A DNA stretch of 64,000 nucleotides, taken from NCBI GenBank assembly GCA_937927775.1, contig CALBEF010000013.1:52079-116078 (forward strand). Reading direction: 5' to 3'. The DNA is from an uncultured Anaerolineae bacterium. Its GTDB lineage: Bacteria > Chloroflexota > Anaerolineae > J036 > Brachytrichaceae. A program made the position numbers and the translations under genes. The notes below the pieces were generated by a model. That model saw nothing but the letters and a program-made list of their open reading frames with translations. It did no database searches and had not been told where the DNA came from. Position 1 is the first letter of the stretch; every line of letters starts with the position of its first letter. Positions 1 through 56,247 of the stretch are shown piece by piece.

Positions 1-1605
1 GAGGAACAACGCGAACACAGCCAGCACGATGAGCGGAATGGTCATGCTGGGCGCAGATTCCGTGGCGTGTTCAGCGGCTGCGCTGCGCGGCTGCCCGAAG
101 AAGGTCATGGCGATCTGGCGGGTGGTGTAGAACGCCGTCAGGGTGGCCGAGAACACCAGCACCAGGAAGACGATCAGCGCCAGGGCGTTGCCTTCGCTCA
201 TCGCATGAAAGGCGTCGGCGAAGATTTCGTCTTTGCTCCAGAAGCCGGCAGTGATGAAGGGGAAACCCATCAGCGCCAGGCCGCCGATCAGGAACGTCCA
301 GAAAGTGACCGGCATTCTGTGGCGCAGGCCGCCCATGTTGCGCATGTCCTGCGGATCAAACGATTCCGGATTTTGGATTTCGGATTTTGGAGTGTGATCG
401 TCGTGGCCATGCGCTTCGTCGCTGCCATGCCCATTGTGATGGTTTGCATGGGCGTGCGCGGCGTGATGATGGCCGTGCTCGACGCCATGAATGACCGAGC
501 CGGAGCCGAGGAACAAGAGCGCCTTGAAGAAAGCGTGCGTGAGCAGGTGAAAGCCGGCGGCGATGTACGCGCCGATGCCGACCGCCGCCACCATGAAGCC
601 AAGCTGGCTGATGGTGGAGAAGGCCAGCACGCGCTTGATGTCGTACTGAGCGACCGCGATGGTCGCGCCGAGGAAAGCCGTGATTGCGCCGATTACGCCG
701 ACGATGGTGAAGGCGGCGCTGTCATGGCCGGCGAATTGAAACAGAGGAAAGAAGCGCAACAGCATGAACACGCCGGCGCTGACCATCGTCGCGGCATGGA
801 TCATCGCGCTGACCGGCGTCGGGCCTTCCATCGCGTCGGGCAACCACACATGCAGCGGGAACTGCGCGCTCTTGCCGACCGTGCCGCCGAAAATGAGAAC
901 GCCGATCATGCCGGCCGCCGAGATGCCCAGCCCCAGCACCGCCGGCGTCTCCGCCAGCAGGCGCAGCGCCTCTTCGTTGTGCAGAATGTCGAAGAAGTTG
1001 AGCGTGCCGGTCTGGCTGTACAAGTACACCATCCCCAGCAACAACAGCATGTCGCCGACGCGGGTGGTCATAAACGCCTTCACGGCCGCTTTGTACGCCG
1101 ACGGCTTGCGATAGAAGAAGCCGATCAACGAGTAGGAGCAGAAGCCCATCAACTCCCAGAAGATGAACAGGGCGAGCAGGCTGTCCGACACCACCAGACC
1201 CATCATCGAGCCGCCAAACAGGCTGAGGAAGGCAAAGAACCGGCTGTACAGCGGGTCGGACGCCATGTAGCCGGTGCTGTAAATGAAGATCAACGAACAC
1301 GTGACCGGCACCATGAACAGGAAGGTGGCGCCCAGAGGATCAACCGCAATGCCGATGCGCAGGAAGGTCTCGCCGGTCGGAATCCACGGGATGGATTGAC
1401 GGATGGGGGCTTTGCCCAAATCGGGCATGCCGATCACGTTGAAGAAGACAATGAGAGCCAGGATTGCCGACGCAAGCATCGCGCCTACGGCGATCGTCGA
1501 GCTGGTCTGACGATGCCGGTGGGTGAACAGCGCAATGACGGCAAACGCCAGCAGCGGCGGCAGCGGCGCCAGCCAGGTCAGGGTTTGAAGGAGTTCTCTG
1601 CTCAT
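1..1605 (-). CDS. nuoL: NADH-quinone oxidoreductase subunit L (N-terminal ~535 codons; gene runs off the left edge)
   Basis: Minus-strand frame from ATG 1605..1603 reads MSRELLQTLTWLAPLPPLLAF... and contains VGKSAQFPLHVWLPDAMEGPTPVSAM and DMRNMGGLRHRMPVTF. It has no stop inside the window, so it is absent from the ORF track. It follows nuoK in the conserved J-K-L order. Confidence 0.9.
   Translation of the reverse strand, partial: MSRELLQTLTWLAPLPPLLAFAVIALFTHRHRQTSSTIAVGAMLASAILALIVFFNVIGMPDLGKAPIRQSIPWIPTGETFLRIGIAVDPLGATFLFMVPVTCSLIFIYSTGYMASDPLYSRFFAFLSLFGGSMMGLVVSDSLLALFIFWELMGFCSYSLIGFFYRKPSAYKAAVKAFMTTRVGDMLLLLGMVYLYSQTGTLNFFDILHNEEALRLLAETPAVLGLGISAAGMIGVLIFGGTVGKSAQFPLHVWLPDAMEGPTPVSAMIHAATMVSAGVFMLLRFFPLFQFAGHDSAAFTIVGVIGAITAFLGATIAVAQYDIKRVLAFSTISQLGFMVAAVGIGAYIAAGFHLLTHAFFKALLFLGSGSVIHGVEHGHHHAAHAHANHHNGHGSDEAHGHDDHTPKSEIQNPESFDPQDMRNMGGLRHRMPVTFWTFLIGGLALMGFPFITAGFWSKDEIFADAFHAMSEGNALALIVFLVLVFSATLTAFYTTRQIAMTFFGQPRSAAAEHATESAPSMTIPLIVLAVFALFL
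368..390. repeat. Heptamer array, GGATTTT/CCAAAAT family (inside nuoL)
   Basis: GGATTTTGGATTTCGGATTTTGG. Translated in nuoL sense as PKSEIQNPES. Confidence 0.85.
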
Positions 1606-1626: not shown

Positions 1627-1655
1627 CAATCACTCAATGACTCAATGGCTCAACC
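1627..1655. repeat. 8-mer array, TCAATGAC family (nuoK-nuoL spacer)
   Basis: CAATCACTCAATGACTCAATGGCTCAACC. Confidence 0.8.
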
Positions 1656-2712: not shown

Positions 2713-2721
2713 CTCTGCACC

Positions 2722-2795
2722 GATTGATGATTGACGATTGACGATTGACGATTGGAGCAAGCGACCTTTCAATCGTCAATTCAACAATCGACAAT
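2722..2795. repeat. Inverted pair of ATTGACG-family heptamer arrays (nuoH-nuoJ spacer)
   Basis: GATTGATGATTGACGATTGACGATTGACGATTGG (2722..2755) faces CAATCGTCAATTCAACAATCGACAAT (2770..2795). The two can pair as a long imperfect hairpin. Confidence 0.85.
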
Positions 2796-2797
2796 TT

Positions 2798-7696: not shown

Positions 7697-8142
7697 GGCA
7701 TTCTCCCTGTCTAGACACCTGGCGTCCATTGGTATCACAGAATCGCCCCCCGTCAACCGCGCAGCAATTCCAAATCCGAGTTCTTCAGCCGGAAGTTGCG
7801 CGGCCTGATGAAAGGCGATGAGAGCAATAGTCAGATGCAATCGCCGGCACGTCCGGTAGACCCCGTTGGCTCCACGCGGACTGCCAAGTCCGCGTTGTGG
7901 ATCGACCTGTGCCGCCGGATTTGGCAATCCGGCGGGAGCCGCGCGAGCACAGTGATGCGCCGGATGCGCCGCTGCGATCCAATGGCGGCCAGCACGACAA
8001 AGCAGGCGTGGCTCCGCTGTCATGTATTGCCTGTCGATTCGGCCTCCACAGCCGGCGGCACCCCGGAGGAGTAGTTTGCTGCCAGACGGCGGAATCGACT
8101 CACAGTTCCAGATTTGGAATTGCTGTCAGCCACGCCACCGTC

Positions 8143-8170
8143 TTGACAAATCGCTGCTGGTCGATACACT
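8143..8170 (+). promoter_or_regulatory. Candidate promoter for the SPFH / NAD-kinase-like pair
   Basis: TTGACA (8143..8148), 16 nt, TACACT (8165..8170), about 100 nt upstream of the SPFH start, which has a GAGGAG Shine-Dalgarno. Confidence 0.4.
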
Positions 8171-8267
8171 TAGCGTCAAACATACACTAATTAGACCGGA
8201 CGCGCGGAACGACGTCAGCGAGACGGCAATCCGGCGCAGCCATTGCCATGAGGAGTTTGCAAAGGAC

Positions 8268-9296: not shown

Positions 9297-9300
9297 CGCG

Positions 9301-10248
9301 ATGGCCGGGGTGGTTGCCATGGATTACGAGAAGATCGTCCTCGTCACGCGCAAAACGCGACTGGAGGGCCTGATCGAGCGGTTCAACACCCGCTCGCAGG
9401 CCCGTTTCTACATCGAGCACAGCGGCGGCGACTTCAGCGTGTACGAGCGCGAGCACGACACCTATCACGCCGCGCTGTCGGCGTTGCGCGCGTCGCTCGA
9501 GCCGTTGCTGAACGTGCAGATGATCGAGCGCACCTATCTGCCGGCCTTTCTGTTCGCCGAGACGGATATGGTGGTGACGATCGGCGTCGATGGGCTGGTG
9601 GCGAATACCGCCAAGTATCTGAGCAGCCAGCCTCTCATCGCCGTCAACCCCGACCCGGCCCACATCGACGGCGTGCTGCTGCCATTCACGGTGCGCGAGG
9701 CGGCTGCGGCAGTGCGCCGTGTGATGAAGGGGCAGCACAACCTTCGCGCCGTAAGCATGGCCGAGGCGCGCTTAAACGACGGCCAGCGATTGCTGGCGTT
9801 CAACGATCTGTTCATCGGCGCGCGTACACACGTCTCGGCGCGTTACACGATTCACATTGGCGACCGCCGGGAAGCGCAGTCGTCCAGCGGTGTCATCGTC
9901 TCCACCGGCATCGGCGCAACCGGCTGGCTGAGCAGCCTGTTTAACATGGCGAATGGGCTGTGGGCTGCGTTCGGGCAACCAGCGTCTGCGCTGCAACCGC
10001 CGGCGCTGTCGCCAGAGGCGGACTGGCTGGCGTTCGTGGTGCGCGAACCCTTCGTCAGCAAGACTTCGCAGGCCGGCATCGTGGGAGGCGTAATCGAGCG
10101 CGACGCTCCCCTGCGCATCGAAGCGCACATGCCGGAAGGAGGGGTCATCTTCAGCGACGGCGTGGAATCGGACTTTCTGGCGTTCAACACCGGCAGCGCG
10201 GCGACGATTTGCCTCGCAGATCGTCGGGCATCGCTCGTGATCAAATAG
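9301..10248 (+). CDS. Atypical ATP-NAD kinase (PpnK) fold protein
   Basis: NAD-kinase-like motifs VVTIGVDGLVANTAKYL (GDG-type), NDLFIGARTHVSARY and SSGVIVSTGIGATGWLSS. Starts 4 nt after the SPFH stop. The start may be 9301 or 9319. Confidence 0.7.
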   Translation: MAGVVAMDYEKIVLVTRKTRLEGLIERFNTRSQARFYIEHSGGDFSVYEREHDTYHAALSALRASLEPLLNVQMIERTYLPAFLFAETDMVVTIGVDGLVANTAKYLSSQPLIAVNPDPAHIDGVLLPFTVREAAAAVRRVMKGQHNLRAVSMAEARLNDGQRLLAFNDLFIGARTHVSARYTIHIGDRREAQSSSGVIVSTGIGATGWLSSLFNMANGLWAAFGQPASALQPPALSPEADWLAFVVREPFVSKTSQAGIVGGVIERDAPLRIEAHMPEGGVIFSDGVESDFLAFNTGSAATICLADRRASLVIK

Positions 10249-10788: not shown

Positions 10789-12393
10789 ATGACTCACATG
10801 CTCACCATTCTCGGCCTCGGCCCCGGCGACGCCACCCTGCTCACCCGCGAAGCATGGGAGGTGTTGACTCATGCCCGCGTTGTGCATCTGCGCACGCGCA
10901 AGCATCCCACAATCAGCGGCCTGCCTTCGCACCTGACCCTGCGCGACTTCGACGCGCTGTACGACGCCGGCGACGACTTTGCGCAGGTCTACACGCGCAT
11001 TGTGGACGAGATCATCGCCGCCGCGCAGAGCGAGGACGTGGTGTACGCAGTCCCCGGCCATCCGCTGGTCGGCGAGGCGACTGTGCCCATGCTGCTTCAG
11101 CGCGCGCGCGACCTCGGCATCGAGACCCGCCTGGTCGCCGGCCTCAGCTTCATCGAGCCGGTGCTGGAGAGTCTGGTCAGTAGTCAGAAGTCAGAAGACG
11201 AGGCGCGCGACACGCAATACGCACTACGCACTACGCAACACGCAATACGCAACACGCAGCTTGCTGCCGACAATCCAAAATCCAAAATCCAAAATCCAAA
11301 ATCATTTGATCCGCTGGACGGCCTGCAACTCTGTGATGCGCTCGAACTGGCGGCGCTGCATCATCCGCCGTTGAACCCCGACCGGCCGGCGCTGATTGCC
11401 CAGCTCTACTCGCGCGCCATCGCATCGGATGTCAAACTGACGCTGATGAACCAGTACCCGCCGGCGCATCCCGTTGCTGTGGTGAACGGCGGCGCGCAGG
11501 ACGCAGATGAAAACGCTGTCGCCTGGGTAGCCCTTCACCGGCTCGATCACAGCGACCGCTTCGACCATCTGACCACGCTCTATGTGCCGGCCATGCCGAT
11601 AACGGCCAGCTTCGAGGGATTACAGGAGACCATCGCGCACCTGCGCGCGCCGGAGGGTTGCCCATGGGATCGCGCGCAAACCCATGAGTCGCTGCGCAGC
11701 GCGCTGCTGGAAGAGGTATACGAAGTGCTGACCGCGCTCGACGAGGGCGACCTGAGCGCCCTGCGCGAGGAAATGGGCGACCTGTTGATGAACCTCATCA
11801 TGCAGGCGCAGATTGCGACCGAAGCCGAAGAGTTCCGCATGGTGGATGTGATCGCCGAGATCGACGCCAAACTGAAACGCCGGCATCCGCATGTGTTCGG
11901 CGAGGTGGTTGTCAACGGCGTCGGCGAAGTGCTGAGCAACTGGAACGCCATCAAGCAACAGGAGCATGTCGAGAAGGGCGCCGCGCGCACGTCGGCCCTG
12001 GACGGCATTCCGCCGGCGTTGCCGGCGCTGGCGCAGGCGCAGAAGATGGCGCACAAGGCCGAGCGCGCCGGCTTTCAGTGGAGCAAGGACGCGCGCCAGG
12101 CCGCGCAGTTGCGGCTGGCGAAAGTCCACGAGGAGATTGATGAGATCGTTGCGGCCGGCGACAACGACCACCGCCGGGAGGAAATCGGCGACCTGCTGTT
12201 CACGCTGGCCGACCTGGCGGACGGGTTTGACATCGACGCCGAAACCGCCCTGCGCAAGGCGAACCTTAAATTCGCCCGGCGATTCCGCGCCATGGAAACG
12301 CTGATTCGTGAACGCGACCTGGATATGCAGGCCATGTCACTGACCGAACTGGAAGCGGTGTGGGCGGAAGTAAAACGAGCCGAGGCCGGCTAA
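10789..12393 (+). CDS. YabN-like fusion: tetrapyrrole (SAM) methylase domain + tandem MazG NTP pyrophosphohydrolase domains
   Basis: N-terminus LTILGLGPGDATLLT...VYAVPGHPLVGE (TP_methylase). C-terminus CPWDRAQTHESLRSALLEEVYEV...EEMGDLL and a second EEIGDLLFTLADLA MazG repeat. The interdomain linker carries three repeat arrays. Confidence 0.85.
   Translation: MTHMLTILGLGPGDATLLTREAWEVLTHARVVHLRTRKHPTISGLPSHLTLRDFDALYDAGDDFAQVYTRIVDEIIAAAQSEDVVYAVPGHPLVGEATVPMLLQRARDLGIETRLVAGLSFIEPVLESLVSSQKSEDEARDTQYALRTTQHAIRNTQLAADNPKSKIQNPKSFDPLDGLQLCDALELAALHHPPLNPDRPALIAQLYSRAIASDVKLTLMNQYPPAHPVAVVNGGAQDADENAVAWVALHRLDHSDRFDHLTTLYVPAMPITASFEGLQETIAHLRAPEGCPWDRAQTHESLRSALLEEVYEVLTALDEGDLSALREEMGDLLMNLIMQAQIATEAEEFRMVDVIAEIDAKLKRRHPHVFGEVVVNGVGEVLSNWNAIKQQEHVEKGAARTSALDGIPPALPALAQAQKMAHKAERAGFQWSKDARQAAQLRLAKVHEEIDEIVAAGDNDHRREEIGDLLFTLADLADGFDIDAETALRKANLKFARRFRAMETLIRERDLDMQAMSLTELEAVWAEVKRAEAG
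11176..11303. repeat. Three concatenated heptamer arrays inside the YabN-like interdomain linker
   Basis: GTCAGTA GTCAGAA GTCAGAA (11176..11197). ACGCAAT/ACGCACT x7 (11211..11259). CCAAAAT x4 (11271..11303). All in frame (..SSQKSEDE..DTQYALRTTQHAIRNTQ..NPKSKIQNPKS..). Confidence 0.9.
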
Positions 12394-28868: not shown

Positions 28869-30491
28869 TTATCCGCCGCCCGACGCCAGCCCAGCAATGG
28901 CGCGGCGGGCATCCTGCTCATCCACCTCACTGGTGATGAATGCGTCGCCGGGCGCGCGCAGCAGGACGAAGCGCACTTTTCCGCCGCACTTCTTCTTGTC
29001 CGATTGCATCAGGCGCCACACGGCATCGACATCGACCGCCGGCAGCGACACCGGCAGTCCGGCGCGCGACAGCGCATTGGTGACTGCCTCGACCAGATCC
29101 GCGCCACACACGCCCAACCTTTGGCCCAGACACATGGCGCACACCATGCCCAGCGACACAGCCTGACCGTGCTTGATAGCGAAATTGCTCCACGCTTCGA
29201 TGCCATGTCCGAAGGTGTGGCCCAGATTCAACAACGCCCGCCGGCCCCGCTCGAACGGGTCTTCCTCCACCACGTCGCGCTTCAGCAGAATCGCGTCGCG
29301 CAGAGATCGTGCGAGTGATGCGCGGAGTTCAGGATTCGCCGTCAATTGCCAATCGTCAATCGTCAATTGCGCGATGCGCTCCCACGCCTCGCCCCCGCGC
29401 AACAGCGCCGCTTTGACAATCTCGGCGTAGCCGCATTGCAACTCGACGGCGGGCAGCGATTGAAGCAGCGCCTGATCCATGATGACAATGTCTGGCTGCT
29501 TGAACGCGCCGACCAGGTTCTTGCCGAACGGTGTGTCCACACCCACTTTGCCGCCAATGCTCGAGTCGGCCATGGCCAGCAACGAAGTCGGAATCTGCGC
29601 AAAAGAGACCCCGCGCATGAACGTGGCAGCGGCGAAGCCGGCCACGTCGCCCACCACGCCCCCGCCCAGCGCAATCACCGCGCCATTGCGCTCCAGTCCG
29701 TTCGCGGCAAACGCCTGATACATGTCCTCGACCGAGCGCAGGGTTTTGTGGGTTTCGCCGGCCGGCATGAGATGAATAAAGCTGGCGAGACCGGCCCGGC
29801 TCAGCGCGCGTTGCAGCCGCCCGGCGTACAACGGCCCCACCTCGCTGTCCGACACAATGGCCAGCGGCGACAACCAGCCGCGCGGCGCCAGCGCAAACCC
29901 CGCCTGGTCGATCAGCCCCTCGCCCATCACGATGTCGTACTGGCCGGCGGGATGGCGCACCGCAATGCGCTCCTGTTCGGCGCGGTAGATGTCCAGCGCG
30001 CACTGCGCCGCCTCTTCGGGGCTGCGGTGCGTAGTGTCGAGGTGATAGTGCAGTTCGGCGTAGGCCGGCGCGCGCGCTTTGAGCAACTGCGCCACGCGGT
30101 CGTGGATGTGTTCGCCCGGCTGTGTGGCGCGCAGCAGGGGGCGCGTAGAGGCGTCCACACGGCGCAGGATCGCTTCCGGCGAGGCGGTCAGACAGAGCGT
30201 GACGCCGGCCCGCAACAGCGCCGCGCGGTTGGCCGGGTCCACGATCATGCCGCCGCCGGTGGCGATGACAATCCGCTCGCGCCCGATCAATTCGCGCGCC
30301 AGCGCCGTCTCCAGCGCGCGGAAATGCGCTTCTCCCATCTGATCGAAGAGCTGCGGGATGGTCAATCCGGCGCGGCGTTCGATCTCGGCGTCGGTATCGA
30401 TGAACTCGTAGCCCAGGCGTTGAGCCACGATCTGGCCGATGGTGGTTTTGCCGGCGCCCATGAAGCCGGCGAGGATGAGCGGTCTAGTCAT
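28869..30491 (-). CDS. aroKB: Bifunctional shikimate kinase / 3-dehydroquinate synthase (AroK-AroB fusion)
   Basis: N-terminus MTRPLILAGFMGAGKTTIGQIVAQRLGYEFIDTD (AroK P-loop). C-terminus GGGVVGDVAGFAAATFMRGVSFAQIPTSLLAMADSSIGGKVGVD (AroB). Start ATG 30491 overlaps the aroC stop by 8 nt. Confidence 0.9.
   Translation of the reverse strand: MTRPLILAGFMGAGKTTIGQIVAQRLGYEFIDTDAEIERRAGLTIPQLFDQMGEAHFRALETALARELIGRERIVIATGGGMIVDPANRAALLRAGVTLCLTASPEAILRRVDASTRPLLRATQPGEHIHDRVAQLLKARAPAYAELHYHLDTTHRSPEEAAQCALDIYRAEQERIAVRHPAGQYDIVMGEGLIDQAGFALAPRGWLSPLAIVSDSEVGPLYAGRLQRALSRAGLASFIHLMPAGETHKTLRSVEDMYQAFAANGLERNGAVIALGGGVVGDVAGFAAATFMRGVSFAQIPTSLLAMADSSIGGKVGVDTPFGKNLVGAFKQPDIVIMDQALLQSLPAVELQCGYAEIVKAALLRGGEAWERIAQLTIDDWQLTANPELRASLARSLRDAILLKRDVVEEDPFERGRRALLNLGHTFGHGIEAWSNFAIKHGQAVSLGMVCAMCLGQRLGVCGADLVEAVTNALSRAGLPVSLPAVDVDAVWRLMQSDKKKCGGKVRFVLLRAPGDAFITSEVDEQDARRAIAGLASGGG
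29341..29370. repeat. ATTGACG-family array inside aroK-aroB
   Basis: GTCAATTGCCAATCGTCAATCGTCAATTGC. Translated on the minus strand as QLTIDDWQLT, with TGA positions replaced by TGG. Confidence 0.8.
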
Positions 30492-31683
30492 ATCCAAATC
30501 GCCACGGCGTGTTGTCCATGCGCAGCGCGTCCAGCCGCAGCCGGCGCAGCGCCTCAAAGCGCGGGCGCATTTCGTCAATCGAGTCGCCGCCCAGTTTCTC
30601 CAGCAGCGCGTCGGCCAGCACGATGCACAGCATGGCTTCGACGATGGGCACGGCGCGCGGAACCTGGCAGAAGTCGCTGCGCTCGTACTGTGTGGCCGCC
30701 GGCGCGCCGGTTGCCAGATCGACCGACTGCAGGGGGGTGAGGGTGGTGGCGATCGGCTTGAGGGCGGCGCGCACGACGATCGGCGCGCCGTTGGTGATGC
30801 CGCCCTCCAGCCCGCCGGCGTGGTTGCTGGTCTGGCGAATCTCGCCATCTTCGACCATCAGTTGATCCTGAACGTGTGTGCCGGGGCGCAGCGTCTCGGC
30901 GAAGCCGTCGCCGATCTCAACGCCTTTCATGGCGTGAATGCTCATCACGGCGGCAGCGATGCGCGCCGACAGCCGGCGATCCCAGTGCACGTGGCTGCCC
31001 AGGCCGGGCGGGACGTTCAGCGCCACGCATTCGATCACACCGCCCAGCGTGTCCTTTGCCTGCATGATCTGGCGAATGGCCTCGCGCATGCGCTCGGCGG
31101 TTGCGGGGTCGTAGCAGCGCACATCAGAGGCTTCGGCGGCGCGGAAACGCTCCAGATAATCCACCCCCTCAACCTTACCAACCTGCCCAACCTGACCAAT
31201 TCCCTCTGTCGACACCTCCCCAATGCTGACCACATACCCGCCTGCCAGAATGCCGAATTCGGCGAGCAGCTTGCGGCAGGCTGCGCCGACCGCTACGCGC
31301 ATGGTGGTCTCGCGGGCCGAGGCGCGCTCCAGCGCCAGGCGCAGCTCGCGGTAGCCGTATTTGACGGCGCCGGTCAGATCGGCGTGGCCGGGGCGCGGAA
31401 TCGTCATCGGCGCGATGTCGCGCTCGCGCCATTTGACATGATCGAGGTTCTCGACCACGAAGGCAATCGGGCCGCCGGTGGTTTTGCCGGCCATCACGCC
31501 GGCGGTGATGCGGGCGTGGTCGCGCTCGATCTTCATGCGCCCCCCGCTGCCAAAGCCCTGCTGCCTGCGCGCCAGGTCTGCGTCGATGTCGGCGGATGAC
31601 AACGGCAGGCCGGCCGGCATGCCTTCCAGAATGGCCGTGAGCGAGGGGCCGTGCGATTCGCCGGCGGTGAGAAATCGGATCAT
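30484..31683 (-). CDS. aroC: Chorismate synthase
   Basis: MIRFLTAGESHGPSLTAILEGMPAGL...GRSSARETTMRVAVGA-like core. Contains an in-frame 9-mer-repeat insertion (GQVGQVGKV). Confidence 0.95.
   Translation of the reverse strand: MIRFLTAGESHGPSLTAILEGMPAGLPLSSADIDADLARRQQGFGSGGRMKIERDHARITAGVMAGKTTGGPIAFVVENLDHVKWRERDIAPMTIPRPGHADLTGAVKYGYRELRLALERASARETTMRVAVGAACRKLLAEFGILAGGYVVSIGEVSTEGIGQVGQVGKVEGVDYLERFRAAEASDVRCYDPATAERMREAIRQIMQAKDTLGGVIECVALNVPPGLGSHVHWDRRLSARIAAAVMSIHAMKGVEIGDGFAETLRPGTHVQDQLMVEDGEIRQTSNHAGGLEGGITNGAPIVVRAALKPIATTLTPLQSVDLATGAPAATQYERSDFCQVPRAVPIVEAMLCIVLADALLEKLGGDSIDEMRPRFEALRRLRLDALRMDNTPWRFGYD
31171..31200. repeat. 9-mer array (AACCTNMCC family) inside aroC
   Basis: AACCTTACC AACCTGCCC AACCTGACC AAT, translated on the minus strand as IGQVGQVGKV. 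Confidence 0.8.
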
Positions 31684-34089: not shown

Positions 34090-35405
34090 AGCGCCGCCAG
34101 GTCGTTGAAGAATCCGGGATATGTCTTGCTAACACACTCGGCGCCGGTGATGACCGTTTCGCCGTCGGCCACCAGCGCGGCCACGGCCAGCGCCATCGCC
34201 ATGCGATGATCGCCCCGGCCATCCACGACTGCGCCGCGCAGGCGGGTCGGCCCCTCCACGATGAATCCGTCGGGCGTGGCTTCGATGCGCGCGCCCATCT
34301 TGCGCAGCTCTTCCACCAGTCCGTCGATGCGATTGCTCTCCTTCACGCGCAACTCTTCCGCGTCGCGCACTACGGTCGTTCCCTGCGCCTGGGTGGCGGC
34401 CACAGCGAAGACGGGGAACTCGTCGATCATGCGCGCCACCTGTTCGCCGCCGACGGTGACGCCGCGCAGCGCGGCGGATGAAATGGTCAGGTTGCCGGCC
34501 GGCTCATTGCCCGCGTCCGGCGCGCGCGCTTCGGTTTCAATCTGCGCGCCCATGTCCCGCAGGGCGTCAAGCAGGCCGGTGCGCGTGGGGTTCAGGCCGA
34601 CATCGGTCAGCCGCAGCCGGGCCTGGGGATGCGCGCAGCCGGCGACGAGAAAGAACGCCGCCGAGGAAAAGTCCGCCGGCACACGCAGGTCAACCGGCTG
34701 AAGAGCGCGCGACGGGGGCGTGACATGATTGACGATTGACGATTGGCGGTTAAGGGGGGACTGGCTGCTCGCGTCCGTTGTGTGCCGCGCAATCGGGACG
34801 CCCATGGCAGCCATCAACCGCTCGGTGTGGTCGCGGGTGACGACCGGCTCCTCAATGCGCGTGTCGCCTTCGGCGTACAGCGCGGCCAGCAGCAGCGCCG
34901 ACTTGATCTGCGCGCTGGCGATCGGCAGGGTGTAGGCGATGCCGCGCAGCGCGGCGGGTTCGATGCGCAACGGAGCGCAGCCGGCGGTGTCGGTGATGCG
35001 CGCGCCCATCCGTGCCAGCGGCTCGGTGACGCGGCGCATGGGCCGCCGGCGCAGTTGCGCGCTGCCATCCAGGATGCTGCCGAACGATTGACCGGCCAAC
35101 AAGCCGGCCAGCAGGCGCATCGTCGTGCCCGATGAATCACAGTACAGGGTGTCGCGCGCCGGTGTCAATCCGCGCAGCCCGCGCCCATGCAGCGTGAGCG
35201 TTTGTTCGCGCTGCTCGATGACGATACCCAGTTGGCGCATGATATTGATCGCCGCGCGCGTGTCGTCGCTGTCCAGATATTCCTCGACGCGGCATACGCC
35301 ATCGGCAAGACTGCCCAGCAACACGCCGCGCACGGTCATGCTGCGGTCGCTCGGCGCGCGCAGGCTGCCGGCGAGTTGGCGGGGCGGATGGATGGATTGG
35401 TCCAT
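34068..35405 (-). CDS. aroA: 3-phosphoshikimate 1-carboxyvinyltransferase (EPSP synthase)
   Basis: LRAPSDRSMTVRGVLLGSLA...LYCDSSGTTMRLLAGLLA...RVKESNRI...DHRMAMALAVAAL. Contains an in-frame heptamer-repeat insertion (NRQSSIVN). Confidence 0.95.
   Translation of the reverse strand: MDQSIHPPRQLAGSLRAPSDRSMTVRGVLLGSLADGVCRVEEYLDSDDTRAAINIMRQLGIVIEQREQTLTLHGRGLRGLTPARDTLYCDSSGTTMRLLAGLLAGQSFGSILDGSAQLRRRPMRRVTEPLARMGARITDTAGCAPLRIEPAALRGIAYTLPIASAQIKSALLLAALYAEGDTRIEEPVVTRDHTERLMAAMGVPIARHTTDASSQSPLNRQSSIVNHVTPPSRALQPVDLRVPADFSSAAFFLVAGCAHPQARLRLTDVGLNPTRTGLLDALRDMGAQIETEARAPDAGNEPAGNLTISSAALRGVTVGGEQVARMIDEFPVFAVAATQAQGTTVVRDAEELRVKESNRIDGLVEELRKMGARIEATPDGFIVEGPTRLRGAVVDGRGDHRMAMALAVAALVADGETVITGAECVSKTYPGFFNDLAALCPEAVA
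34725..34749. repeat. ATTGACG-family array inside aroA
   Basis: ATGATTGACGATTGACGATTGGCGG, translated on the minus strand as NRQSSIVNH. Confidence 0.8.
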
Positions 35406-35490: not shown

Positions 35491-36423
35491 TCAGAAGTGC
35501 GCTTTGCGGGTTTGGGCAGCCGCAGTCAGATAGGCGCGCAGACCGGCTTCGTCCCTGCGCTCGATCAGGGCCGTGAGCTGGTCGAGCGAGAACTGAAAGT
35601 CGCGGATCGCGCCGGTGACGGCGTCTGCGTTGGTCAACAGGATATCGATCATCATGCCCACATCGCTGGCGGCCACCCGGCTGGTGTCGCGGAAGCCGCT
35701 GGCGGTCACCCGCCACAGCGCGGGGTCGTTCAGGCCGGCCTGTTCCGCCGCCGTGACCAGCGCAACCGCGAGCGCGTAGGGCAGATGGCTGGCACAGGCC
35801 ACCAGCATGTCATGCCGGGCAGGGTCAAGCTCAAGGGTAATGGCCCCGGCGTTCTCTGCCAGCGTCCTGACAGCCGCGAGCGCGTCGTCGTCGGTGCGCG
35901 CCGTGCGCGTGAGAATCCAGGTCTTGCCGCGATACAACGCGGCGTCGGCAGCGTCGAGGCCGGGCACCTCTTTGCCGCACATGGGGTGCGACCCGACGGC
36001 CCGCAGGTGATCGGGCAACTGATTCATGGCGCGGATGATCTCGGACTTGGTGCTGCCCAGGTCAGTGATGACGGCGCCGGCCTTGGCCGCGCCGGCCAGA
36101 TTGCCGATCTGCGCGATGATCGTGCGCACCGGCGTGGCAAGAACGACAATGTCCGCCTCGCTTACGCCTTCCGCCAACTCGGTTGTGCCGGCGTCGATGA
36201 TGCCCCGCCCCAGCGCCTCGCGGAGGGTCTCGGCGCGCCGGGCCACGCCGGTGATGCGGGCGTAGCGACCGCGCACGGCCAGCGCAAGCGACGCTCCCAT
36301 CAGGCCCAGCCCGACGATACAAATAGAGGAGTGGCGATTGACGATTGACGGTTGGCGATTGACGATTGACGATTGGCTCACACGCTGATTGTACGGGACG
36401 CTGCTTTCACACGCTGCGGTCAA
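35491..36423 (-). CDS. tyrA: Prephenate dehydrogenase
   Basis: [17 protein letters not shown] (Rossmann), ...GSHPMCG... The true start is uncertain (ATG 36423 or GTG 36381). Either way the N-terminus is encoded by the ATTGACG-family array ([15 protein letters not shown]). Confidence 0.85.
36333..36376. repeat. ATTGACG-family array at the tyrA 5' end
   Basis: GGCGATTGACGATTGACGGTTGGCGATTGACGATTGACGATTGG, minus-strand sense [15 protein letters not shown]. Confidence 0.85.
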
Positions 36424-43000: not shown

Positions 43001-44532
43001 ACAGCAGTGCTGGTAAGCGCGCGCGTCACGCTGATCACCGTCAGGGCAGGGTTGGCGCTGAGCAGCAGCGCGGCAACGCCGGCCACATGCGGCGTCGCCA
43101 TTGACGTGCCGTTGGCGGTGACGTAAGCGCCGCCCGGGAACGTGGAAAGCACGCCGACGCCGGGGGCGACGATGTCCGGGCGCGCCGGCCCAAAGGGCGA
43201 TGGCCCCCGGCTGGAGAAATACGCCACATCGTCATCTGGATCGCTGGCCCCAACCCCAAACGCGCCGGGCAGACTGGCCGGCGAACCGACCGTGCCCGCC
43301 TGCGGCCCTTTGTTGCCGTTCGCAAACAGCACGACGATGCCGGCTGCGCGCAAGGCGGCAATATCATCGGTAAACTCGGTGTCCAGGCCGTTGTCGCTGC
43401 CCCAGGAGTTGCTGAGCACGTCCGGCGCATGGGCCGGGTCGCCGCCCGGCGCCAGCATGAACTCGAACGCGGCGTGCAGCCAGCTATACAAGCCGTATCC
43501 CGCTCCGTTCAACCCTTTGGCGGCCATCCAGCGCGCGCCCGGCGCCACGCCTATGCCCTCGCGCCCGGCAATGCTGCCCATGGTGTGCGTGCCGTGCCCG
43601 TGCATGTCTGTGGGATAGGTGGCCGCTTCGTTCGTCGCGTCGAACCAGTTGCGCAGATGATCGGCTACCGGCCCATGTCCCCAGCCGCGATAGTTTGCGC
43701 GCAGCGCGGGATGATTCCAGTCCACGCCGGTGTCGATGTTCGCCACCACAACACCCGTGCCGGTGATGTTGAAGCCGCGCCAGACCTGATCGGCGCGAAT
43801 CTGCGCGATGCCCCACGTTGTTGTGCCCGGCGCCGGCGGATCGCTCATTACTTTGTTGTTCAGTGTGACGCTGACCGGCGAACGCGCCGGCAGTGATTCG
43901 GGAGACGGGCCGGCCAACCCACGCGCCGCGAGCAGCGGCGGAACCGCGCCCGATTTTAGATTTTGGATTTCGGGGTTTGGATTTTCGATTTTGGATTGCC
44001 GGCTGTCGGCGTTGATCCACTGCCGCCATTCGTCCAGACTGATGGAAGCCACCTCCTCGCGCGCGGCGATGGCTTTGACGACCTCCGGGGTTGTCTGGAG
44101 CGCCAGGCCGTTGAAGATCCAGAAGGAGCGCATCTCGCTGATCTGTGGCGCGATGTCGGGCCGCGAGAGGAAAGCGCGCAGGCCGGCCTGGGATGCCTGA
44201 GCGTGTTGCTGAAGCGACGCCGCCAGAGCGCGCCGGCGCGCAACCCTTTGCTCGCGCGGCATGGCCTCGGCGGGCGCATCCTGCGCCAGCAGGCTGGCGA
44301 CAGACGAAGGCCGGCTGTCGCGCAGCCGCACAATCACGCGCAACATCGCGCCGGGCAGGGCGGATTGCAGCGCCTGTTGCAGGCCGGGGGATTCGATTTT
44401 GGATTGTGGATTGTGGATTGTGGATTGTGGTTCGACAGTCTTACCACTGCGCGCCGCGTTGATGGTGTGAGCAGGCATCCACATCGCGCAGCACAGCGCG
44501 GCAAGCAGGACGATTCGGGTCAGGTTTTTCAT
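40009..44532 (-). CDS. Giant secreted subtilisin-like serine protease (peptidase S8) with multiple beta-sandwich domains
   Basis: Signal peptide MKNLTRIVLLAALCCAMW. Catalytic triad contexts VVANIDTGVDWNHPAL, HGHGTHTMGSIAG, NGTSMATPHVAGVAALL. CarboxypepD_reg-like repeats and a ~800-aa C-terminal region of unknown function. Confidence 0.9.
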   Translation of the reverse strand: MKNLTRIVLLAALCCAMWMPAHTINAARSGKTVEPQSTIHNPQSKIESPGLQQALQSALPGAMLRVIVRLRDSRPSSVASLLAQDAPAEAMPREQRVARRRALAASLQQHAQASQAGLRAFLSRPDIAPQISEMRSFWIFNGLALQTTPEVVKAIAAREEVASISLDEWRQWINADSRQSKIENPNPEIQNLKSGAVPPLLAARGLAGPSPESLPARSPVSVTLNNKVMSDPPAPGTTTWGIAQIRADQVWRGFNITGTGVVVANIDTGVDWNHPALRANYRGWGHGPVADHLRNWFDATNEAATYPTDMHGHGTHTMGSIAGREGIGVAPGARWMAAKGLNGAGYGLYSWLHAAFEFMLAPGGDPAHAPDVLSNSWGSDNGLDTEFTDDIAALRAAGIVVLFANGNKGPQAGTVGSPASLPGAFGVGASDPDDDVAYFSSRGPSPFGPARPDIVAPGVGVLSTFPGGAYVTANGTSMATPHVAGVAALLLSANPALTVISVTRALTSTAVPLSTTLPNNESGWGRVDAWNAVLSVISTGVITGRVLDGAQPISGAQIVAQSGPQQLHAVTGADGGYTIPAPFGIYTVTAGAFGYQPATSSPRIVITNSATVVNFNLTALPSGIVRGVATDVQSSIYLTQTVVRALGTPESSLANGGFPARYYALNLPAGVYTIEARLLGYIVQTRTVAVTDGSISELNFALTPTRRIAFVDSGAWYYGSAAAQYRAALDDLSLPYDELRVKRLPADTPTITQLLRYDTVIWSAPFDSPGYIGAGDVISRYLAAGRNLMLSGQDIAFYDGGGFLFEPYFSRLNAYYAADDIPSRVVTGAHGSLLTGKVLTIAGGDGANNQYLVDAVQVVNPDRGHALGQYGFVYRDYEAAGVYAAQCLNYKSALFAFGFEAIDSAAERADVLRRVRDAFDAPRPTMGVELLSRDTHFTGPAIGLPGQVVTHLARIRNTGEAGVTQTFALSLSGHTWPTSVASATVTLAPCASALVEISVTLPITALWNVSDTVTISASLVSSPAIQSAISFTSKTPAGILLVDDDRFYNREQDYLDALAAQGNFADRWDTRWGFGVANSPPITALRMYPLVVWFNGYDWFDPIQPAEEDTLRQYLEGGGRLLFSSQAALFYTELSAFTQNYLGVAAIDYDDVFSNVIGAPSALGDDFPGGSLLDSFGQFPYAWNLSTAVQPLSGTQVILRGDSGQPAGLARERPRNISGAAWRTTLLPFAFEALTATVRADLMNRIAGWLSWLGRSQIAPHQERIAAGDSVTFTITLRADEIISSPLAITPTVALSAPVSTDLFVISSTLPGWTIHSAGAWSGALQAGLTLSWTFVATTSAGLPAGAPLTATLHIATQQPDIRFTRHAALRAAAPRLISSLEMQPAAPSWRSLITFTARMTNAGSLLAPTALLTAVIPPGLMLLTHTVRGPQTGNVALDRNRVSWTGTLSAGASISLTYAVSVPGLHLTQRDFYHAVLIDDGTGTLSQSALWVSPGAQTRFLPVILR
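43952..44000. repeat. GGATTTT-family array inside the S8 protease gene
   Basis: GATTTTAGATTTTGGATTTCGGGGTTTGGATTTTCGATTTTGGATTGCC, minus-strand sense RQSKIENPNPEIQNLKS. Confidence 0.85.
44390..44440. repeat. GGATTGT/GGATTTT-family array near the S8 protease N-terminus
   Basis: GATTCGATTTTGGATTGTGGATTGTGGATTGTGGATTGTGG, minus-strand sense PQSTIHNPQSKIES. Confidence 0.85.
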
Positions 44533-45644
44533 ATCAGGTCAGGCCATGCAGGCGATTCGATTTCAGATTGTGGATTGCCGGTGATGCGCGCGATGGCCCA
44601 GGCCGCATGTTCGCGCAGCAGCGGCTCTTCATCGTTCAGCAGCGCGCGCAGGGCCGGCAATGCGTCGGGGCTGCCCCAGTTGCCGGCTGCCACACAGGCG
44701 TTGCGCAGCAGCCCGCGCCGTTTCGCGCGCAGCACCGCTGCGCCTTTGAAGCGCGCGTTGAACGCAGCGCGATCCCAGCTCAACACGTCGAGCAGGGGCG
44801 GGGCCATGCGCCATTCTGCCGGCGGGTAAAACGCATTGTCGCGCGTCGGGCGCGAATATTGACGCACATACGGGCACACCTCCTGGCACACATCGCAGCC
44901 GAAGATCCAGTTGCCCATCAACGGGCGCAGTTCCAGGGGGATGCTGCCTTTCAACTCGATGGTGAGATAGGAGATGCAGCGCCGCGCGTCGAGCACAAAC
45001 GGTTCGGGGAAAGCCTGTGTGGGACAGGCAACCAGGCAGCGCGCGCAGTTGCCGCAGCCGCACTTCGATTTTGGATTGTGGGTTGCGGACTGTGAATTGC
45101 CCTGCTCGTCGCCGGGCGCAGCGTCATCCGGCTGTATCTCCACCGGCGCGAAGATAGCGCCGAGGAAGAAGTACGAGCCGCGCGTCCTGTGGATCAGGCA
45201 GGTGTTCTTGCCGATGAATCCCAGGCCGCATCGCTCGGCCCAGGCGCGTTCGAGCACCGGGCCGGTGTCCACCCAGGCGCGTGATTCGCGGGCGATGAAT
45301 GCGCCGAGTTCCCGCAGGCGCGGCGTCAGAATATCGTGATAATCGGCGCCCCAGGCATAGCGCGCGATGCGACCGCGCGCGGGGTCGGTCAACAATTCAG
45401 CGGGCACAGCCGGTGTGTCGTAGCTTGCGCCGGCCAGAATGACCGTGCGCGCGCCCGGCAGCGCAAGACGCGGGTCGGCGCGCTTGTCGGCGCTGCGTTC
45501 GAGGTAGTCCATCTCGCCGGCATAGCCCAGGCTGAGCCAGCGCAGGAAACGGTCGGCGCCGGGGGTGGGGCCGGCTGGCGCAAAGCCGATCAGGTCAAAC
45601 CCCAGTTCCAGGGCGCGCTCAATGACCAATCGGGCTATCAGCAT
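44529..45644 (-). CDS. queG: tRNA epoxyqueuosine(34) reductase
   Basis: Two 4Fe-4S motifs (CGNCARCLVACP, CDVCQEVCP), CISYLTIELKG, and C-terminal HEAT-like ...ALRALLNDEEPLLREHAAWAI. Stop overlaps the S8 ATG (ATGA). Confidence 0.9.
   Translation of the reverse strand: MLIARLVIERALELGFDLIGFAPAGPTPGADRFLRWLSLGYAGEMDYLERSADKRADPRLALPGARTVILAGASYDTPAVPAELLTDPARGRIARYAWGADYHDILTPRLRELGAFIARESRAWVDTGPVLERAWAERCGLGFIGKNTCLIHRTRGSYFFLGAIFAPVEIQPDDAAPGDEQGNSQSATHNPKSKCGCGNCARCLVACPTQAFPEPFVLDARRCISYLTIELKGSIPLELRPLMGNWIFGCDVCQEVCPYVRQYSRPTRDNAFYPPAEWRMAPPLLDVLSWDRAAFNARFKGAAVLRAKRRGLLRNACVAAGNWGSPDALPALRALLNDEEPLLREHAAWAIARITGNPQSEIESPAWPDLI
44554..44579. repeat. GGATTGT-family short array at the queG 3' end
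   Basis: GATTCGATTTCAGATTGTGGATTGCC, minus-strand sense GNPQSEIES. Confidence 0.7.
45066..45101. repeat. GGATTGT-family array inside queG
   Basis: CGATTTTGGATTGTGGGTTGCGGACTGTGAATTGCC, minus-strand sense GNSQSATHNPKSK, directly before the first Fe-S Cys motif. Confidence 0.75.
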
Positions 45645-48753: not shown

Positions 48754-48768
48754 CGGGGCGCGCCGCAC

Positions 48769-48859
48769 GTAGTGCGTGTTGCGTAGTGCGTGTTGCGTAG
48801 TGCGTATTACGTAGTGCGTATTACGTATTGCGTATTGCGTATTGCGCATTACGTATTGG
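48769..48859. repeat. 13-unit heptamer array (GTAGTGC / GTGTTGC / GTATTAC / GTATTGC)
   Basis: 91 nt = 13 x 7, between the response-regulator stop (48753) and the convergent HEPN gene. The last units encode the HEPN C-terminus and stop. Confidence 0.9.
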
Positions 48860-56207: not shown

Positions 56208-56208
56208 C

Positions 56209-56247
56209 GATTTTGGATTTTGGATTTTGGATTTGCGATTGCAGATT
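56209..56247. repeat. GGATTTT-family array (nuoB-nuoC spacer)
   Basis: GATTTTGGATTTTGGATTTTGGATTTGCGATTGCAGATT. This non-coding copy has GGATTTT on the transcribed sense strand, the opposite of all coding copies. Confidence 0.85.

What the first reader, a model, noticed from the sequence alone, without database searches (positions are those of the whole stretch)
11176..11303. Repeat arrays are inserted in frame into conserved proteins, with a strand bias that avoids stops and hydrophobic peptides
Twelve arrays lie inside genes: nuoL, the yabN-like gene, aroK-aroB, aroC, aroA, tyrA, the S8 protease (x2), queG (x2) and the ydiJ-like gene (x2). All preserve the reading frame.

A heptamer repeated three times encodes the same 7-aa period in every frame.
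- (CCAAAAT)3 gives P-K-S-K-I-Q-N. The complementary sense (ATTTTGG)3 gives I-L-D-F-G-F-W.
- All seven coding copies of this family have CCAAAAT as the mRNA sense: PKSEIQNPES in NuoL, NPKSKIQNPKS in YabN-like, PNPQSKIKNPKS in YdiJ-like, HNPQSKIES and SKIENPNPEIQN in S8, HNPKSK and NPQSEIES in QueG.
- The clearly non-coding copy at 56209..56247 has the opposite orientation.

For the ATTGACG family, the ATTGACG sense hits TGA in every frame.
- Coding copies therefore use the CGTCAAT sense (RQSSIVN in TyrA, AroA and YdiJ-like).
- The one exception, in aroK-aroB (29341..29370), has the TGA positions changed to TGG (TIDDWQLT).

The insertions fall at linkers, loops or termini. In the YabN-like protein three families sit together exactly at the methylase/MazG junction. 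This looks like selection filtering a frequent insertion process.
Basis: seen in the sequence. Interest (0 to 1): 0.65.

Follow-up and report, generated by a model that had tools for sequence, protein, structure and literature searches.

The report
In-frame heptamer repeats inside housekeeping genes
Short 7-base tandem repeats that litter this Chloroflexota genome also sit in frame inside conserved enzymes, almost always with the A-rich strand as mRNA, so they add harmless water-loving loops; this is a clear case of selection filtering a known kind of repeat, not a new system.

Summary
All twelve repeat sites exist, lie in intact conserved genes and are far above chance: 15 and 12 matches for the two main families against 0 in shuffles.

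All seven coding CCAAAAT arrays have CCAAAAT as the mRNA sense. CGTCAAT arrays avoid the TGA-bearing sense, and the aroB exception carries TGG at its one in-frame TGA position.

The orientation bias generalises:
- (CCAAAAT)3 in 120 loci from many phyla is 48 sense to 3 antisense inside coding sequence, against 33 to 19 in intergenic DNA.
- (ACGCAAT)3 is 44 to 10.
- Other heptamer families found in the same loci show A>T on the sense strand 39 to 15 in coding sequence, against 67 to 60 in intergenic DNA.

Between relatives, coding arrays differ only by multiples of 3 nt, whereas four of the five intergenic heptamer-array differences are multiples of 7 nt (-7, -21, -56, -70). Arrays are about 5.5 times denser outside genes.

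Corrections:
- The YabN insert lies between the two halves of the methylase-like domain, not at the MazG junction.
- The aroB array adds only about 4 residues.
- Intergenic arrays also lean towards the sense orientation, more weakly.

The stop-codon and orientation argument was already published for TAACTGA heptamers (PMC4679880). This is a new member of the known heptanucleotide-repeat class.

The parts
362..391 (-). CCAAAAT-family array in nuoL. It encodes TPKSEIQNPES (residues 413-423) in the hypervariable His-rich loop between GSGSVIH and FDPQDMRNMGGL.
   Evidence: L244 has no array at this site and L245 has a different repeat there.
11176..11197 (+). GTCAGAA x3.1 array in the YabN-like gene (VSSQKSED). 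The antisense strand carries TGA.
11206..11258 (+). ACGCAAT-family x6.7 array in the YabN-like gene (RDTQYALRTTQHAIRNTQ).
11272..11303 (+). CCAAAAT x4.6 perfect array in the YabN-like gene (NPKSKIQNPKS). It ends the disordered insert between the two halves of the methylase-like domain.
29340..29370 (-). Array in aroK-aroB in the ATTGACG sense (AQLTIDDWQLT). The one in-frame TGA position reads TGG, and the net gain is about 4 residues.
31170..31199 (-). Nonamer array in aroC (IGQVGQVGKVE), in a loop whose length varies among solved chorismate synthases.
34727..34745 (-). CGTCAAT x2.7 array in aroA (NRQSSIVNH), inside an insertion of about 13 residues relative to solved EPSP synthases.
36332..36377 (-). 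CGTCAAT-family x5.9 array at the N-terminus of tyrA ([16 protein letters not shown]), before the Rossmann motif.
43952..43997 (-). CCAAAAT-family array in the S8 protease (QSKIENPNPEIQNLKS, from residue 179), upstream of the catalytic domain that starts at residue 258.
44395..44430 (-). CCACAAT/CCAAAAT array in the S8 protease (PQSTIHNPQSKI, from residue 35), just after the N-terminal hydrophobic, signal-peptide-like segment.
44553..44576 (-). Degenerate CCAAAAT-family array forming the QueG C-terminal tail (NPQSEIES). It is absent from relative L001.
45063..45080 (-). Short CCAAAAT-family array in QueG (HNPKSK), within an insertion of about 17 residues just before the first Cys motif.
51555..51607 (+). 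CGTCAAT/CGCTCAAT array in the YdiJ-like gene (GAQSSIAQSSIAQSSIVNP), between the two Fe-S Cys motifs. It is absent from L002 as a clean 69-nt gap.
51949..51979 (+). CAGGAGA x4.4 array in the YdiJ-like gene (QETGDRSQESD), in the linker between the Fe-S and CCG domains.
51988..52028 (+). CCAATCC/CCAAAAT array in the YdiJ-like gene (PIPNPQSKIKNPKS), in the same linker.
56208..56247 (-). Non-coding comparator: a CCAAAAT array (GATTTTG on the + strand) between the nuoB stop and the nuoC start, antisense to the operon.
48768..48858 (-). Non-coding comparator: an ACGCAAT-family x13 array between the response-regulator gene and the ydiJ-like gene, antisense to both. It is 70 and 56 nt shorter in relatives.
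2721..2754 (-). Non-coding comparator: a CGTCAAT x4.9 array upstream of the nuoJ ATG, forming one arm of an intercistronic hairpin.

Best explanation
These are heptanucleotide (plus some 8- and 9-nt) tandem-repeat arrays of the class called STRR or long SSR. The lineage is a GC-rich Chloroflexota (Anaerolineae/Thermoflexales-like) and it is prone to making and resizing such arrays. Arrays change by whole-unit gain and loss, most likely replication slippage, and they decay by point mutation. They are commonest in intergenic spacers.

Inside genes only a filtered subset survives. A surviving array must:
1. have a net length that is a multiple of 3;
2. have no in-frame stop;
3. have the A-rich strand as the mRNA sense;
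4. sit in a surface loop, an inter-domain linker or a terminus.

The A-rich rule follows from the code. A 7-nt unit is read in all three frames over 21 nt, so each of its bases is the second codon base exactly once per period. The number of A's therefore sets the number of hydrophilic NAN residues (K, N, Q, E, D). The number of T's sets the number of hydrophobic NTN residues (I, L, F, V).

The encoded peptides are probably passive, disordered loop extensions with no function of their own.

Shown here: the arrays, their orientation bias, their depletion in coding sequence, the 3n versus 7n length changes, and their loop or linker positions. Inferred: slippage as the generator, and hydropathy as the selected property.
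For: - Arrays are real and far above chance.
- In the window, 7 of 7 coding CCAAAAT arrays are sense. Most coding arrays have negative Kyte-Doolittle means (mostly -0.4 to -2.8; aroC and YdiJ array 1 are slightly positive), while their antisense readings are hydrophobic or contain stops.
- Across phyla, (CCAAAAT)3 is 48 sense to 3 antisense in coding sequence (p=2e-11), against 33 to 19 in co-directional intergenic DNA (Fisher p=2e-4).
- (ACGCAAT)3, which is stop-free in both orientations, is 44 to 10 in coding sequence.
- Period-7 arrays of other families found in the same loci have A>T on the sense strand 39 to 15 in coding sequence (p=0.0015), against 67 to 60 in intergenic DNA.
- All 10 sampled sense-orientation hosts are real proteins with Pfam domains, and in most the array lies between or outside the domains.
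- Arrays are 5.5 times denser per base outside coding sequence.
- Between relatives, coding arrays differ by +6, 0, -69, +12, +3, -3, +48, -30 and +12 nt, all multiples of 3. Four of the five intergenic heptamer-array differences are -70, -56, -21 and -7 nt, all multiples of 7; the fifth, the nuoH-nuoJ spacer, differs by -8 nt.
- Host proteins stay 86-95% identical to those of relatives, so they are not pseudogenes.
- Inserts map to gaps or variable loops against solved structures.
- The YabN insert is predicted disordered, with pLDDT below 50 for residues 140-171.
- The same YabN site carries 0 to about 110 extra low-complexity residues in 35 homologs.
Against: - Intergenic arrays of the two searched families also lean towards the sense orientation (58 to 27 overall; 30 to 17 in spacers of 250 nt or less). 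Part of the bias may therefore not act at the protein level.
- Hosts of the rare A<T coding arrays are not significantly enriched in membrane proteins (6 of 25 against 26 of 121), although several clear cases are.
- Gene calls in the 240 comparison loci are heuristic, based on ORF length and codon-position GC. Only 18 of them were checked with Pfam.
- Stepwise 7-nt slippage cannot by itself create an in-frame array in an essential gene without passing through frameshifted intermediates. The birth step is therefore unexplained.
- There is no expression or proteomic evidence.
Confidence: 0.75

Rival explanations
1. The orientation preference acts at the RNA or transcription level rather than the protein level. 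For example, an A-rich repeat might be favoured in transcripts because it is unstructured, binds a heptamer-recognising RNA-binding protein, or reflects transcription-coupled mutation or repair. The coding arrays would then simply inherit that bias.
For: Intergenic arrays between co-directional genes also lean towards the sense orientation for both searched families: 33 to 19 and 25 to 8, and 30 to 17 in short spacers. Many intergenic arrays sit immediately upstream of start codons.
Against: The bias is significantly stronger in coding sequence than in intergenic DNA: 88% against 68% (Fisher p=2e-4 for CCAAAAT; p=2e-7 for all period-7 arrays). Intergenic arrays of other families show no bias (67 to 60). 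In the window, the two transcribed intergenic arrays of these families are antisense.
Confidence: 0.12
2. The arrays spread by a templated copy-and-paste or otherwise sequence-specific insertion process, such as ectopic conversion from other arrays or a dedicated enzyme or mobile element, rather than by local slippage. That process would seed the same unit families at many sites and in many phyla.
For: - The same heptamers form arrays in Cyanobacteria, Chloroflexota, Acidobacteriota, Verrucomicrobiota and Planctomycetota.
- They are hugely over-represented in four metagenomes.
- Different families lie side by side.
- At one site the unit family differs between relatives while the architecture is kept.
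- In NuoL an array replaces loop sequence with almost no length change.
- Half of the clade's arrays share an AATC core.
- An in-frame birth needs a jump of a multiple of 3 nt.
Against: - No transposase, terminal inverted repeats or target duplications were seen, though they were not searched for systematically.
- The only shared flank found, after the nuoL and yabN arrays, is native conserved coding sequence in both genes.
- Intergenic length differences are mostly whole units, as slippage predicts.
- Families could diverge from one another by mutation within arrays.
Confidence: 0.2
3. The in-frame arrays are adaptive. They would be selected as flexible hydrophilic linkers or tails that tune the spacing, solubility or interactions of the host enzymes.
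For: Arrays persist at the same sites across species-level divergence. They lie at linkers.
Against: - The sequence, length and even presence of arrays vary freely among close relatives: L002 lacks YdiJ array 1, L001 lacks the QueG tail and L244 lacks the NuoL array.
- Homologs with no insert at all are common.
- The peptide is dictated by whichever DNA unit is present.
Confidence: 0.08
4. The arrays are contingency loci. Slippage by one 7-nt unit would switch the host genes off and on, giving phase variation.
For: Unit lengths are not multiples of 3, and several arrays are perfect enough to slip (11272-11303 is 100% matched).
Against: - The hosts are housekeeping genes (aroA, aroC, aroB, tyrA, nuoL, queG).
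- Every orthologous comparison keeps the frame.
- No frameshifted allele was seen in five related assemblies.
Confidence: 0.03

Closest known systems
TAACTGA heptamer direct repeats of Beggiatoaceae, Cyanobacteria and Bacteroidetes (MacGregor 2015, PMC4679880)
   Same: - Dispersed tandem 7-nt arrays, mostly intergenic and often just upstream of start codons.
- One orientation has stops in all three frames, so only the other occurs inside ORFs, where it encodes a 7-residue period.
- Intragenic copies lie in variable surface loops or at protein ends.
- Differences between strains come in 7-nt steps.
- The same unit occurs in distant phyla.
   Different: - The unit sequences and the phylum differ; no Chloroflexota are mentioned in that paper.
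- Several families here are stop-free in both orientations and still show a strong coding-strand bias. That bias needs the extra hydropathy (A>T) rule, which is not stated in that paper.
- The hosts here are core metabolic enzymes.
Cyanobacterial STRR (short tandemly repeated repetitive) heptanucleotide sequences; long SSRs of 5-11 nt (Mrazek et al. 2007, as summarised in PMC4679880)
   Same: - Heptamers are the dominant unit length.
- Arrays of different units lie side by side.
- Arrays are tolerated inside a functional gene at a permissive position, as in the RNase P RNA gene (Vioque 1997; title seen).
- Rotations of the TAACTGA unit and of GGGGATT (the GGGGA(C/T)T repeat of PMC4692102) occur in the same loci as CCAAAAT arrays. 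So does a rotation of CAACAGT, which I recall as STRR3 (my own knowledge).
   Different: The classical STRR units (CCCCAGT, TTGGTCA, CAACAGT; from my own knowledge) are not the families of this window. The host here is a non-cyanobacterial, 64% GC genome.
GGGAATC / GGGGA(C/T)T G-quadruplex-forming heptamer repeats of Xanthomonas and Nostoc (Rehm et al. 2015, PMC4692102)
   Same: [quoted passage not shown]
   Different: Those repeats are G-rich, and their bias is attributed to G4 structure. The families here are A/T-rich in a GC-rich genome and cannot form G4. The bias here fits the hydropathy of the encoded peptide.
Phase-variable simple-sequence contingency loci (Haemophilus, Neisseria)
   Same: Tandem short units not divisible by 3, lying inside coding regions and prone to slippage.
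   Different: Here the frame is always kept among relatives, the hosts are housekeeping genes, and nothing suggests on/off switching.

Membership tests
Heptanucleotide tandem repeats (STRR / long SSR class) | Head-to-tail arrays of a 5-11 nt unit, longer than chance allows | tested here: met
   TRF arrays of period 7, 8 and 9. There were 15 and 12 matches against 0 in shuffles.
Heptanucleotide tandem repeats (STRR / long SSR class) | The same unit families are dispersed at many loci of the genome, mostly intergenic | tested here: met
   There are 28 arrays in 64 kb, about half of them in the roughly 10% of the window that is non-coding. The density ratio is 5.5 in 240 other loci. The whole genome was not available.
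Heptanucleotide tandem repeats (STRR / long SSR class) | Copy number changes in whole units between related strains | tested here: met
   Intergenic heptamer arrays differ by -70, -56, -21 and -7 nt between the window and L001/L002. One spacer, nuoH-nuoJ, differs by -8 nt.
Classical cyanobacterial STRR1-3 | Unit sequences CCCCAGT, TTGGTCA or CAACAGT in heterocystous cyanobacteria (from my own knowledge) | tested here: not met
   The window's units are CCAAAAT, CGTCAAT, ACGCAAT, GTCAGAA and CAGGAGA. The organism is a Chloroflexota.
TAACTGA-type heptamer repeats (MacGregor 2015) | Unit TAACTGA | tested here: not met
   No TAACTGA array is in the window. It appears only in arrays found incidentally in cyanobacterial loci.
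TAACTGA-type heptamer repeats (MacGregor 2015) | Only the stop-free orientation occurs inside ORFs | tested here: met
   The CGTCAAT and GTCAGAA arrays follow this rule. The single exception has its in-frame TGA changed to TGG.
Phase-variable contingency locus | Alleles among strains differ by a non-multiple of 3 and so switch the reading frame | tested here: not met
   All nine coding comparisons differ by multiples of 3, and all the ORFs are intact.
Mobile element (MITE/REP-like) or intein/intron | Terminal inverted repeats and target duplication, or splicing motifs and removal from the product | not tested
   There was no systematic search. The arrays are pure tandem units with no other recognisable sequence, and no Rfam family matches the window.

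The most novel reading that the evidence does not exclude
A sequence-specific, horizontally shared process seeds arrays of a few related heptamers (AATC/CAAT-core units such as CCAAAAT, CGTCAAT and ACGCAAT) in distant phyla. It would act by jumps, or by conversion from other arrays, rather than by stepwise slippage. The same process would build inverted-array hairpins between cistrons. These hairpins keep their structure while the unit family is swapped, as in the nuoH-nuoJ spacer. The in-frame arrays would then be a steady source of new disordered linkers in conserved enzymes.
Probability: 0.12. Interest if true: 0.7.

Novelty: new member of a known kind. Interest (0 to 1): 0.38.

Why it matters
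The window gives a clean natural experiment on what a protein will tolerate. A mutational process drops the same 7-residue periods into many unrelated enzymes, and the survivors show the rules: keep the frame, have no stops, put the A-rich (hydrophilic) strand on the mRNA, and sit in loops, linkers or termini.

The rule that A count minus T count of the unit sets the hydropathy of the peptide is simple and testable. It held in three independent samples here. I did not find it stated in the heptamer-repeat papers I could read.

Practical consequences:
- Such arrays inflate and diversify linker regions.
- They can mislead gene callers about start codons.
- They break assemblies.
- They are a likely origin of low-complexity segments in Chloroflexota and cyanobacterial proteins.

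None of this reveals a new molecular system.

Tried and rejected
- **Copy-and-paste evidence from shared flanks.** The CCAAAAT arrays of nuoL and yabN are both followed by TTTGATCCGC.GGAC, with 14 of 16 bases identical at the same offset. Alignments show that FDPQD in NuoL and DPLDG in YabN are native and conserved even in homologs without arrays. This is therefore not proof of transfer. At most it hints at ATCC microhomology.
- **Membrane proteins as refuges for hydrophobic arrays.** Three of the antisense hosts checked with Pfam are membrane proteins: PMT, PMT_2 and DUF2142. Over all hosts there is no enrichment (6 of 25 against 26 of 121, p=0.79).
- **Population-level indel spectrum.** Only assembled contigs, not raw reads, were available for the runs that hold this sequence. 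The contigs break at the arrays.
- **Exact look-up of the YabN-like protein.** It failed because the recorded gene call starts 3 codons later.
- **Rfam.** No family matches the window.
- **Papers.** Mrazek 2007 and Vioque 1997 could not be read. They are cited only through other papers.
Full report
**1. What is there**

The window is 64 kb of a 61-67% GC genome. The closest named relatives of its proteins are Chloroflexota MAGs labelled Anaerolineae, Thermoflexales and Candidatus Roseilinea. Tandem Repeats Finder lists dozens of short-period arrays, with period 7 dominant.

At the given coordinates three families lie side by side inside one ORF:
- GTCAGAA x3.1 (11176-11197)
- ACGCAAT-type x6.7 (11206-11258)
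- CCAAAAT x4.6, perfect (11272-11303)

With up to 3 mismatches, (CCAAAAT)3 occurs 15 times and (CGTCAAT)3 12 times in the window. Dinucleotide-preserving shuffles gave 0 for both.

**2. The twelve genic sites**

A codon-position GC analysis and Pfam identify the hosts:
- nuoL (1-1629, minus strand, running off the window)
- a TP_methylase+MazG (YabN-like) gene
- aroK-aroB
- aroC
- aroA (34068-35405; the ORF at 31768-33126 is a C1 peptidase)
- tyrA
- an S8 protease
- a FAD-oxidase/Fe-S/CCG (YdiJ-like) gene

QueG (44529-45644) is identified by its match to solved epoxyqueuosine reductases. The hosts are not pseudogenes. The ORFs are intact, and orthologs in related assemblies are 86-95% identical in protein while the DNA is 78-86% identical.

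**3. Codon arithmetic and orientation in the window**

A heptamer is read in all three frames over 21 nt, so any frame gives the same 7-residue period.
- CCAAAAT gives PKSKIQN and its complement gives ILDFGFW. All 7 coding arrays of this family are CCAAAAT-sense, on both DNA strands according to the strand of the gene.
- ATTGACG has TGA in every frame. The aroA, tyrA and YdiJ arrays use the CGTCAAT sense.
- The aroB array is in the ATTGACG sense. Only every third unit places its TGA in frame, and that unit reads TGG.

Most coding arrays have negative mean hydropathy. The exceptions are aroC and YdiJ array 1, which are slightly positive, and aroB, which is only slightly negative. The antisense readings are hydrophobic or contain stops.

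A simple rule follows. Each base of the unit is the second codon base once per period. The A count therefore gives the number of hydrophilic NAN residues and the T count gives the number of hydrophobic NTN residues.

**4. Where the inserts sit**

Comparison with solved structures gives these positions:
- aroA: an insertion of about 13 residues in a loop.
- aroC: a segment whose length varies among chorismate synthases.
- nuoL: an unaligned stretch of about 40 residues between GSGSVIH and DMRNMGGL. In 28 homologs this is a hypervariable His-rich loop.
- queG: about 17 extra residues just before the first Cys motif, plus a C-terminal tail.
- aroB: a net gain of only about 4 residues over an existing segment.
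- S8: both arrays lie between the N-terminal hydrophobic, signal-peptide-like segment and the catalytic domain at residue 258.
- YdiJ-like: the arrays lie between the two Fe-S motifs, where 111 residues span a 68-position profile, and between the Fe-S and CCG domains.
- tyrA: the array precedes the Rossmann motif, and no canonical start codon lies after it.

One claim is wrong. The YabN insert (residues about 128-172) is not at the methylase/MazG junction. MazG homology starts at about residue 276-282. The AlphaFold model has folded strands and helices after the insert and pLDDT below 50 for residues 140-171. The insert therefore lies between the two halves of the methylase-like domain. In 35 homologs the same site holds 0 to about 110 low-complexity residues with different repeat-like peptides.

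**5. Does the orientation bias generalise?**

They came from Cyanobacteria, Chloroflexota, Acidobacteriota, Verrucomicrobiota, Planctomycetota and others. I called genes heuristically, from ORF length and codon-position GC.

| Sample | Coding sequence | Co-directional intergenic |
|---|---|---|
| (CCAAAAT)3, sense : antisense | 48 : 3 (p=2e-11) | 33 : 19 |
| (ACGCAAT)3, sense : antisense | 44 : 10 (strict set 23 : 3) | 25 : 8 |
| Other period-7 families, A>T : A<T on the sense strand | 39 : 15 (p=0.0015) | 67 : 60 |

- For CCAAAAT, coding and intergenic ratios differ with Fisher p=2e-4. In loci below 50% GC, where long ORFs are reliable, the coding count is 18 to 0.
- (ACGCAAT)3 is stop-free in both orientations. 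It was scanned in metagenome contigs.
- Ten of ten sampled sense-orientation hosts are real proteins with Pfam domains. In most of them the array lies between or outside the Pfam domains.
- Arrays are 5.5 times denser per base outside coding sequence. Coding arrays pile up in the first fifth of ORFs, partly because longest-ORF calling absorbs 5' leaders.

Caveats:
- Intergenic arrays of the two searched families also lean towards the sense orientation (30 to 17 in short spacers). A transcript-level contribution cannot be excluded.
- Hosts of A<T arrays are not enriched in membrane proteins.

**6. Dynamics in relatives**

Five syntenic loci were recovered: L001, L002 and L003, and L244 and L245.
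- Coding arrays differ from the window by +6, 0, -69, +12, +3, -3, +48, -30 and +12 nt. All are multiples of 3.
- Four of the five intergenic heptamer-array differences are -70, -56, -21 and -7 nt, all multiples of 7. The fifth, the nuoH-nuoJ spacer, differs by -8 nt. Spacers holding octamer and nonamer arrays also vary freely in length.
- L002 lacks YdiJ array 1 as a clean 23-residue gap, and L001 carries a decayed version.
- L001 lacks the QueG tail.
- In the NuoL loop, L244 has no repeat and L245 has a different repeat. Only the window and a 95%-identical protein carry the CCAAAAT peptide.

Arrays are thus born, resized, decayed and replaced at tolerant sites, and selection allows only in-frame states within genes.

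**7. Mechanism and rivals**

The best account is a slippage-prone class of repeats filtered by purifying selection on frame, stops, hydropathy and position (confidence about 0.75).

The weak point is the birth of an in-frame array in an essential gene. Single-unit slippage would pass through frameshifts, so a jump of 21 nt or another multiple of 3, or conversion from another array, is needed. A shared flank after the nuoL and yabN arrays looked like copy-and-paste but is native sequence in both genes.

Phase variation is contradicted by the comparisons between relatives. Adaptive-linker function is contradicted by free presence/absence and sequence turnover.

**8. What is known**

The stop-codon and orientation logic, the loop or terminus location of intragenic copies, the 7-nt indels between strains and the cross-phylum occurrence have all been described for TAACTGA heptamers (PMC4679880). 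That paper also summarises the finding of Mrazek et al. 2007 that 7-nt units dominate long SSRs. Strand preferences of heptamer repeats relative to ORFs are described for GGGAATC repeats (PMC4692102). STRR sequences inside the cyanobacterial RNase P RNA gene are known (Vioque 1997; title seen).

What I did not find in those papers is the A-rich-sense (hydropathy) rule for stop-free units, or any account of this phenomenon in Chloroflexota. My searches turned up no such paper.

**9. Verdict**

This is a new member of a known kind and of moderate interest.

Noticed in passing
window 2705-2800 (- strand); L244:4400-4490 (-); L245:4409-4499 (-): The nuoH-nuoJ spacer is a hairpin built from an array and its inverted copy, ending about 10 nt before the nuoJ ATG. 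It folds in all three relatives (-29.1, -28.2 and -37.3 kcal/mol; z = -2.8, -2.9 and -5.1). The stem is made of CGTCAAT units in the window and of CCAAAAT units in L244 and L245. The structure is kept while the unit family is replaced in both arms.
   Followed up: partly
window 55560-55724 (+): The nuoA-nuoB spacer holds two inverted nonamer arrays (GGTTCGTAA x7 and AACCTTAAG x5). They fold into a long hairpin (-62.6 kcal/mol, z = -6.3). The hairpin is weaker in L001 and L002.
   Followed up: partly
window, all arrays; L001-L003, L244-L246: Half of this clade's period 7-9 arrays (25 of 50) share an AATC core. Seventeen of 50 contain CAAT/ATTG, against 3.8 expected. Examples are CGTC-AATC, CCAA-AATC, CCCC-AATC, CCAC-AATC and CAATGACT. 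This suggests either descent of families from one another or a sequence preference of the generating process.
   Followed up: partly
window 11210-11331; loci L004-L243: The same heptamers form arrays in many phyla. In four metagenomes (labelled marine, soil and hot spring) the assembler word depth over these arrays is hundreds to thousands of times that of the flanks, with many different flanking sequences. Inverted array pairs 20-60 nt apart recur in other phyla, for example L023, L074, L076, L114 and L115.
   Followed up: partly
window 58030-59499 (+): A gene with a Fic/DOC domain lies in a low-GC stretch (53% against about 64%) between genes of the nuo operon. It looks like a foreign insertion.
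   Followed up: no
window 31768-33126 (-): A C1-family (PepC/bleomycin-hydrolase-like) peptidase gene sits inside the shikimate/aromatic amino acid operon, between aroC and aroE. It carries no arrays.
   Followed up: no
window 8022-10248 (+): An SPFH/Band 7 gene and an ORF with no Pfam match lie between the YkuD-type transpeptidase gene and the ClpS-sized ORF. Both are absent from the otherwise syntenic loci L244 and L245.
   Followed up: no
window 38551-38596, 1627-1653, 19824-19903, 31716-31765, 35404-35485: Octamer arrays (CAATGACT-type) fill the leaders just upstream of several start codons. The unit itself contains ATG, so the arrays create in-frame candidate starts (for example [14 protein letters not shown] before the conserved MVIIMK of the second DAHP synthase). 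They can mislead start-codon calls.
   Followed up: no
window 330-480 (-), NuoL residues about 385-425: The NuoL loop after GSGSVIH is His-rich (HGHHHAAHAHANHH...) and hypervariable in length (0 to about 90 residues) in all 28 homologs. L245 carries a different repeat, of roughly 21-nt period by eye, in this loop.
   Followed up: partly
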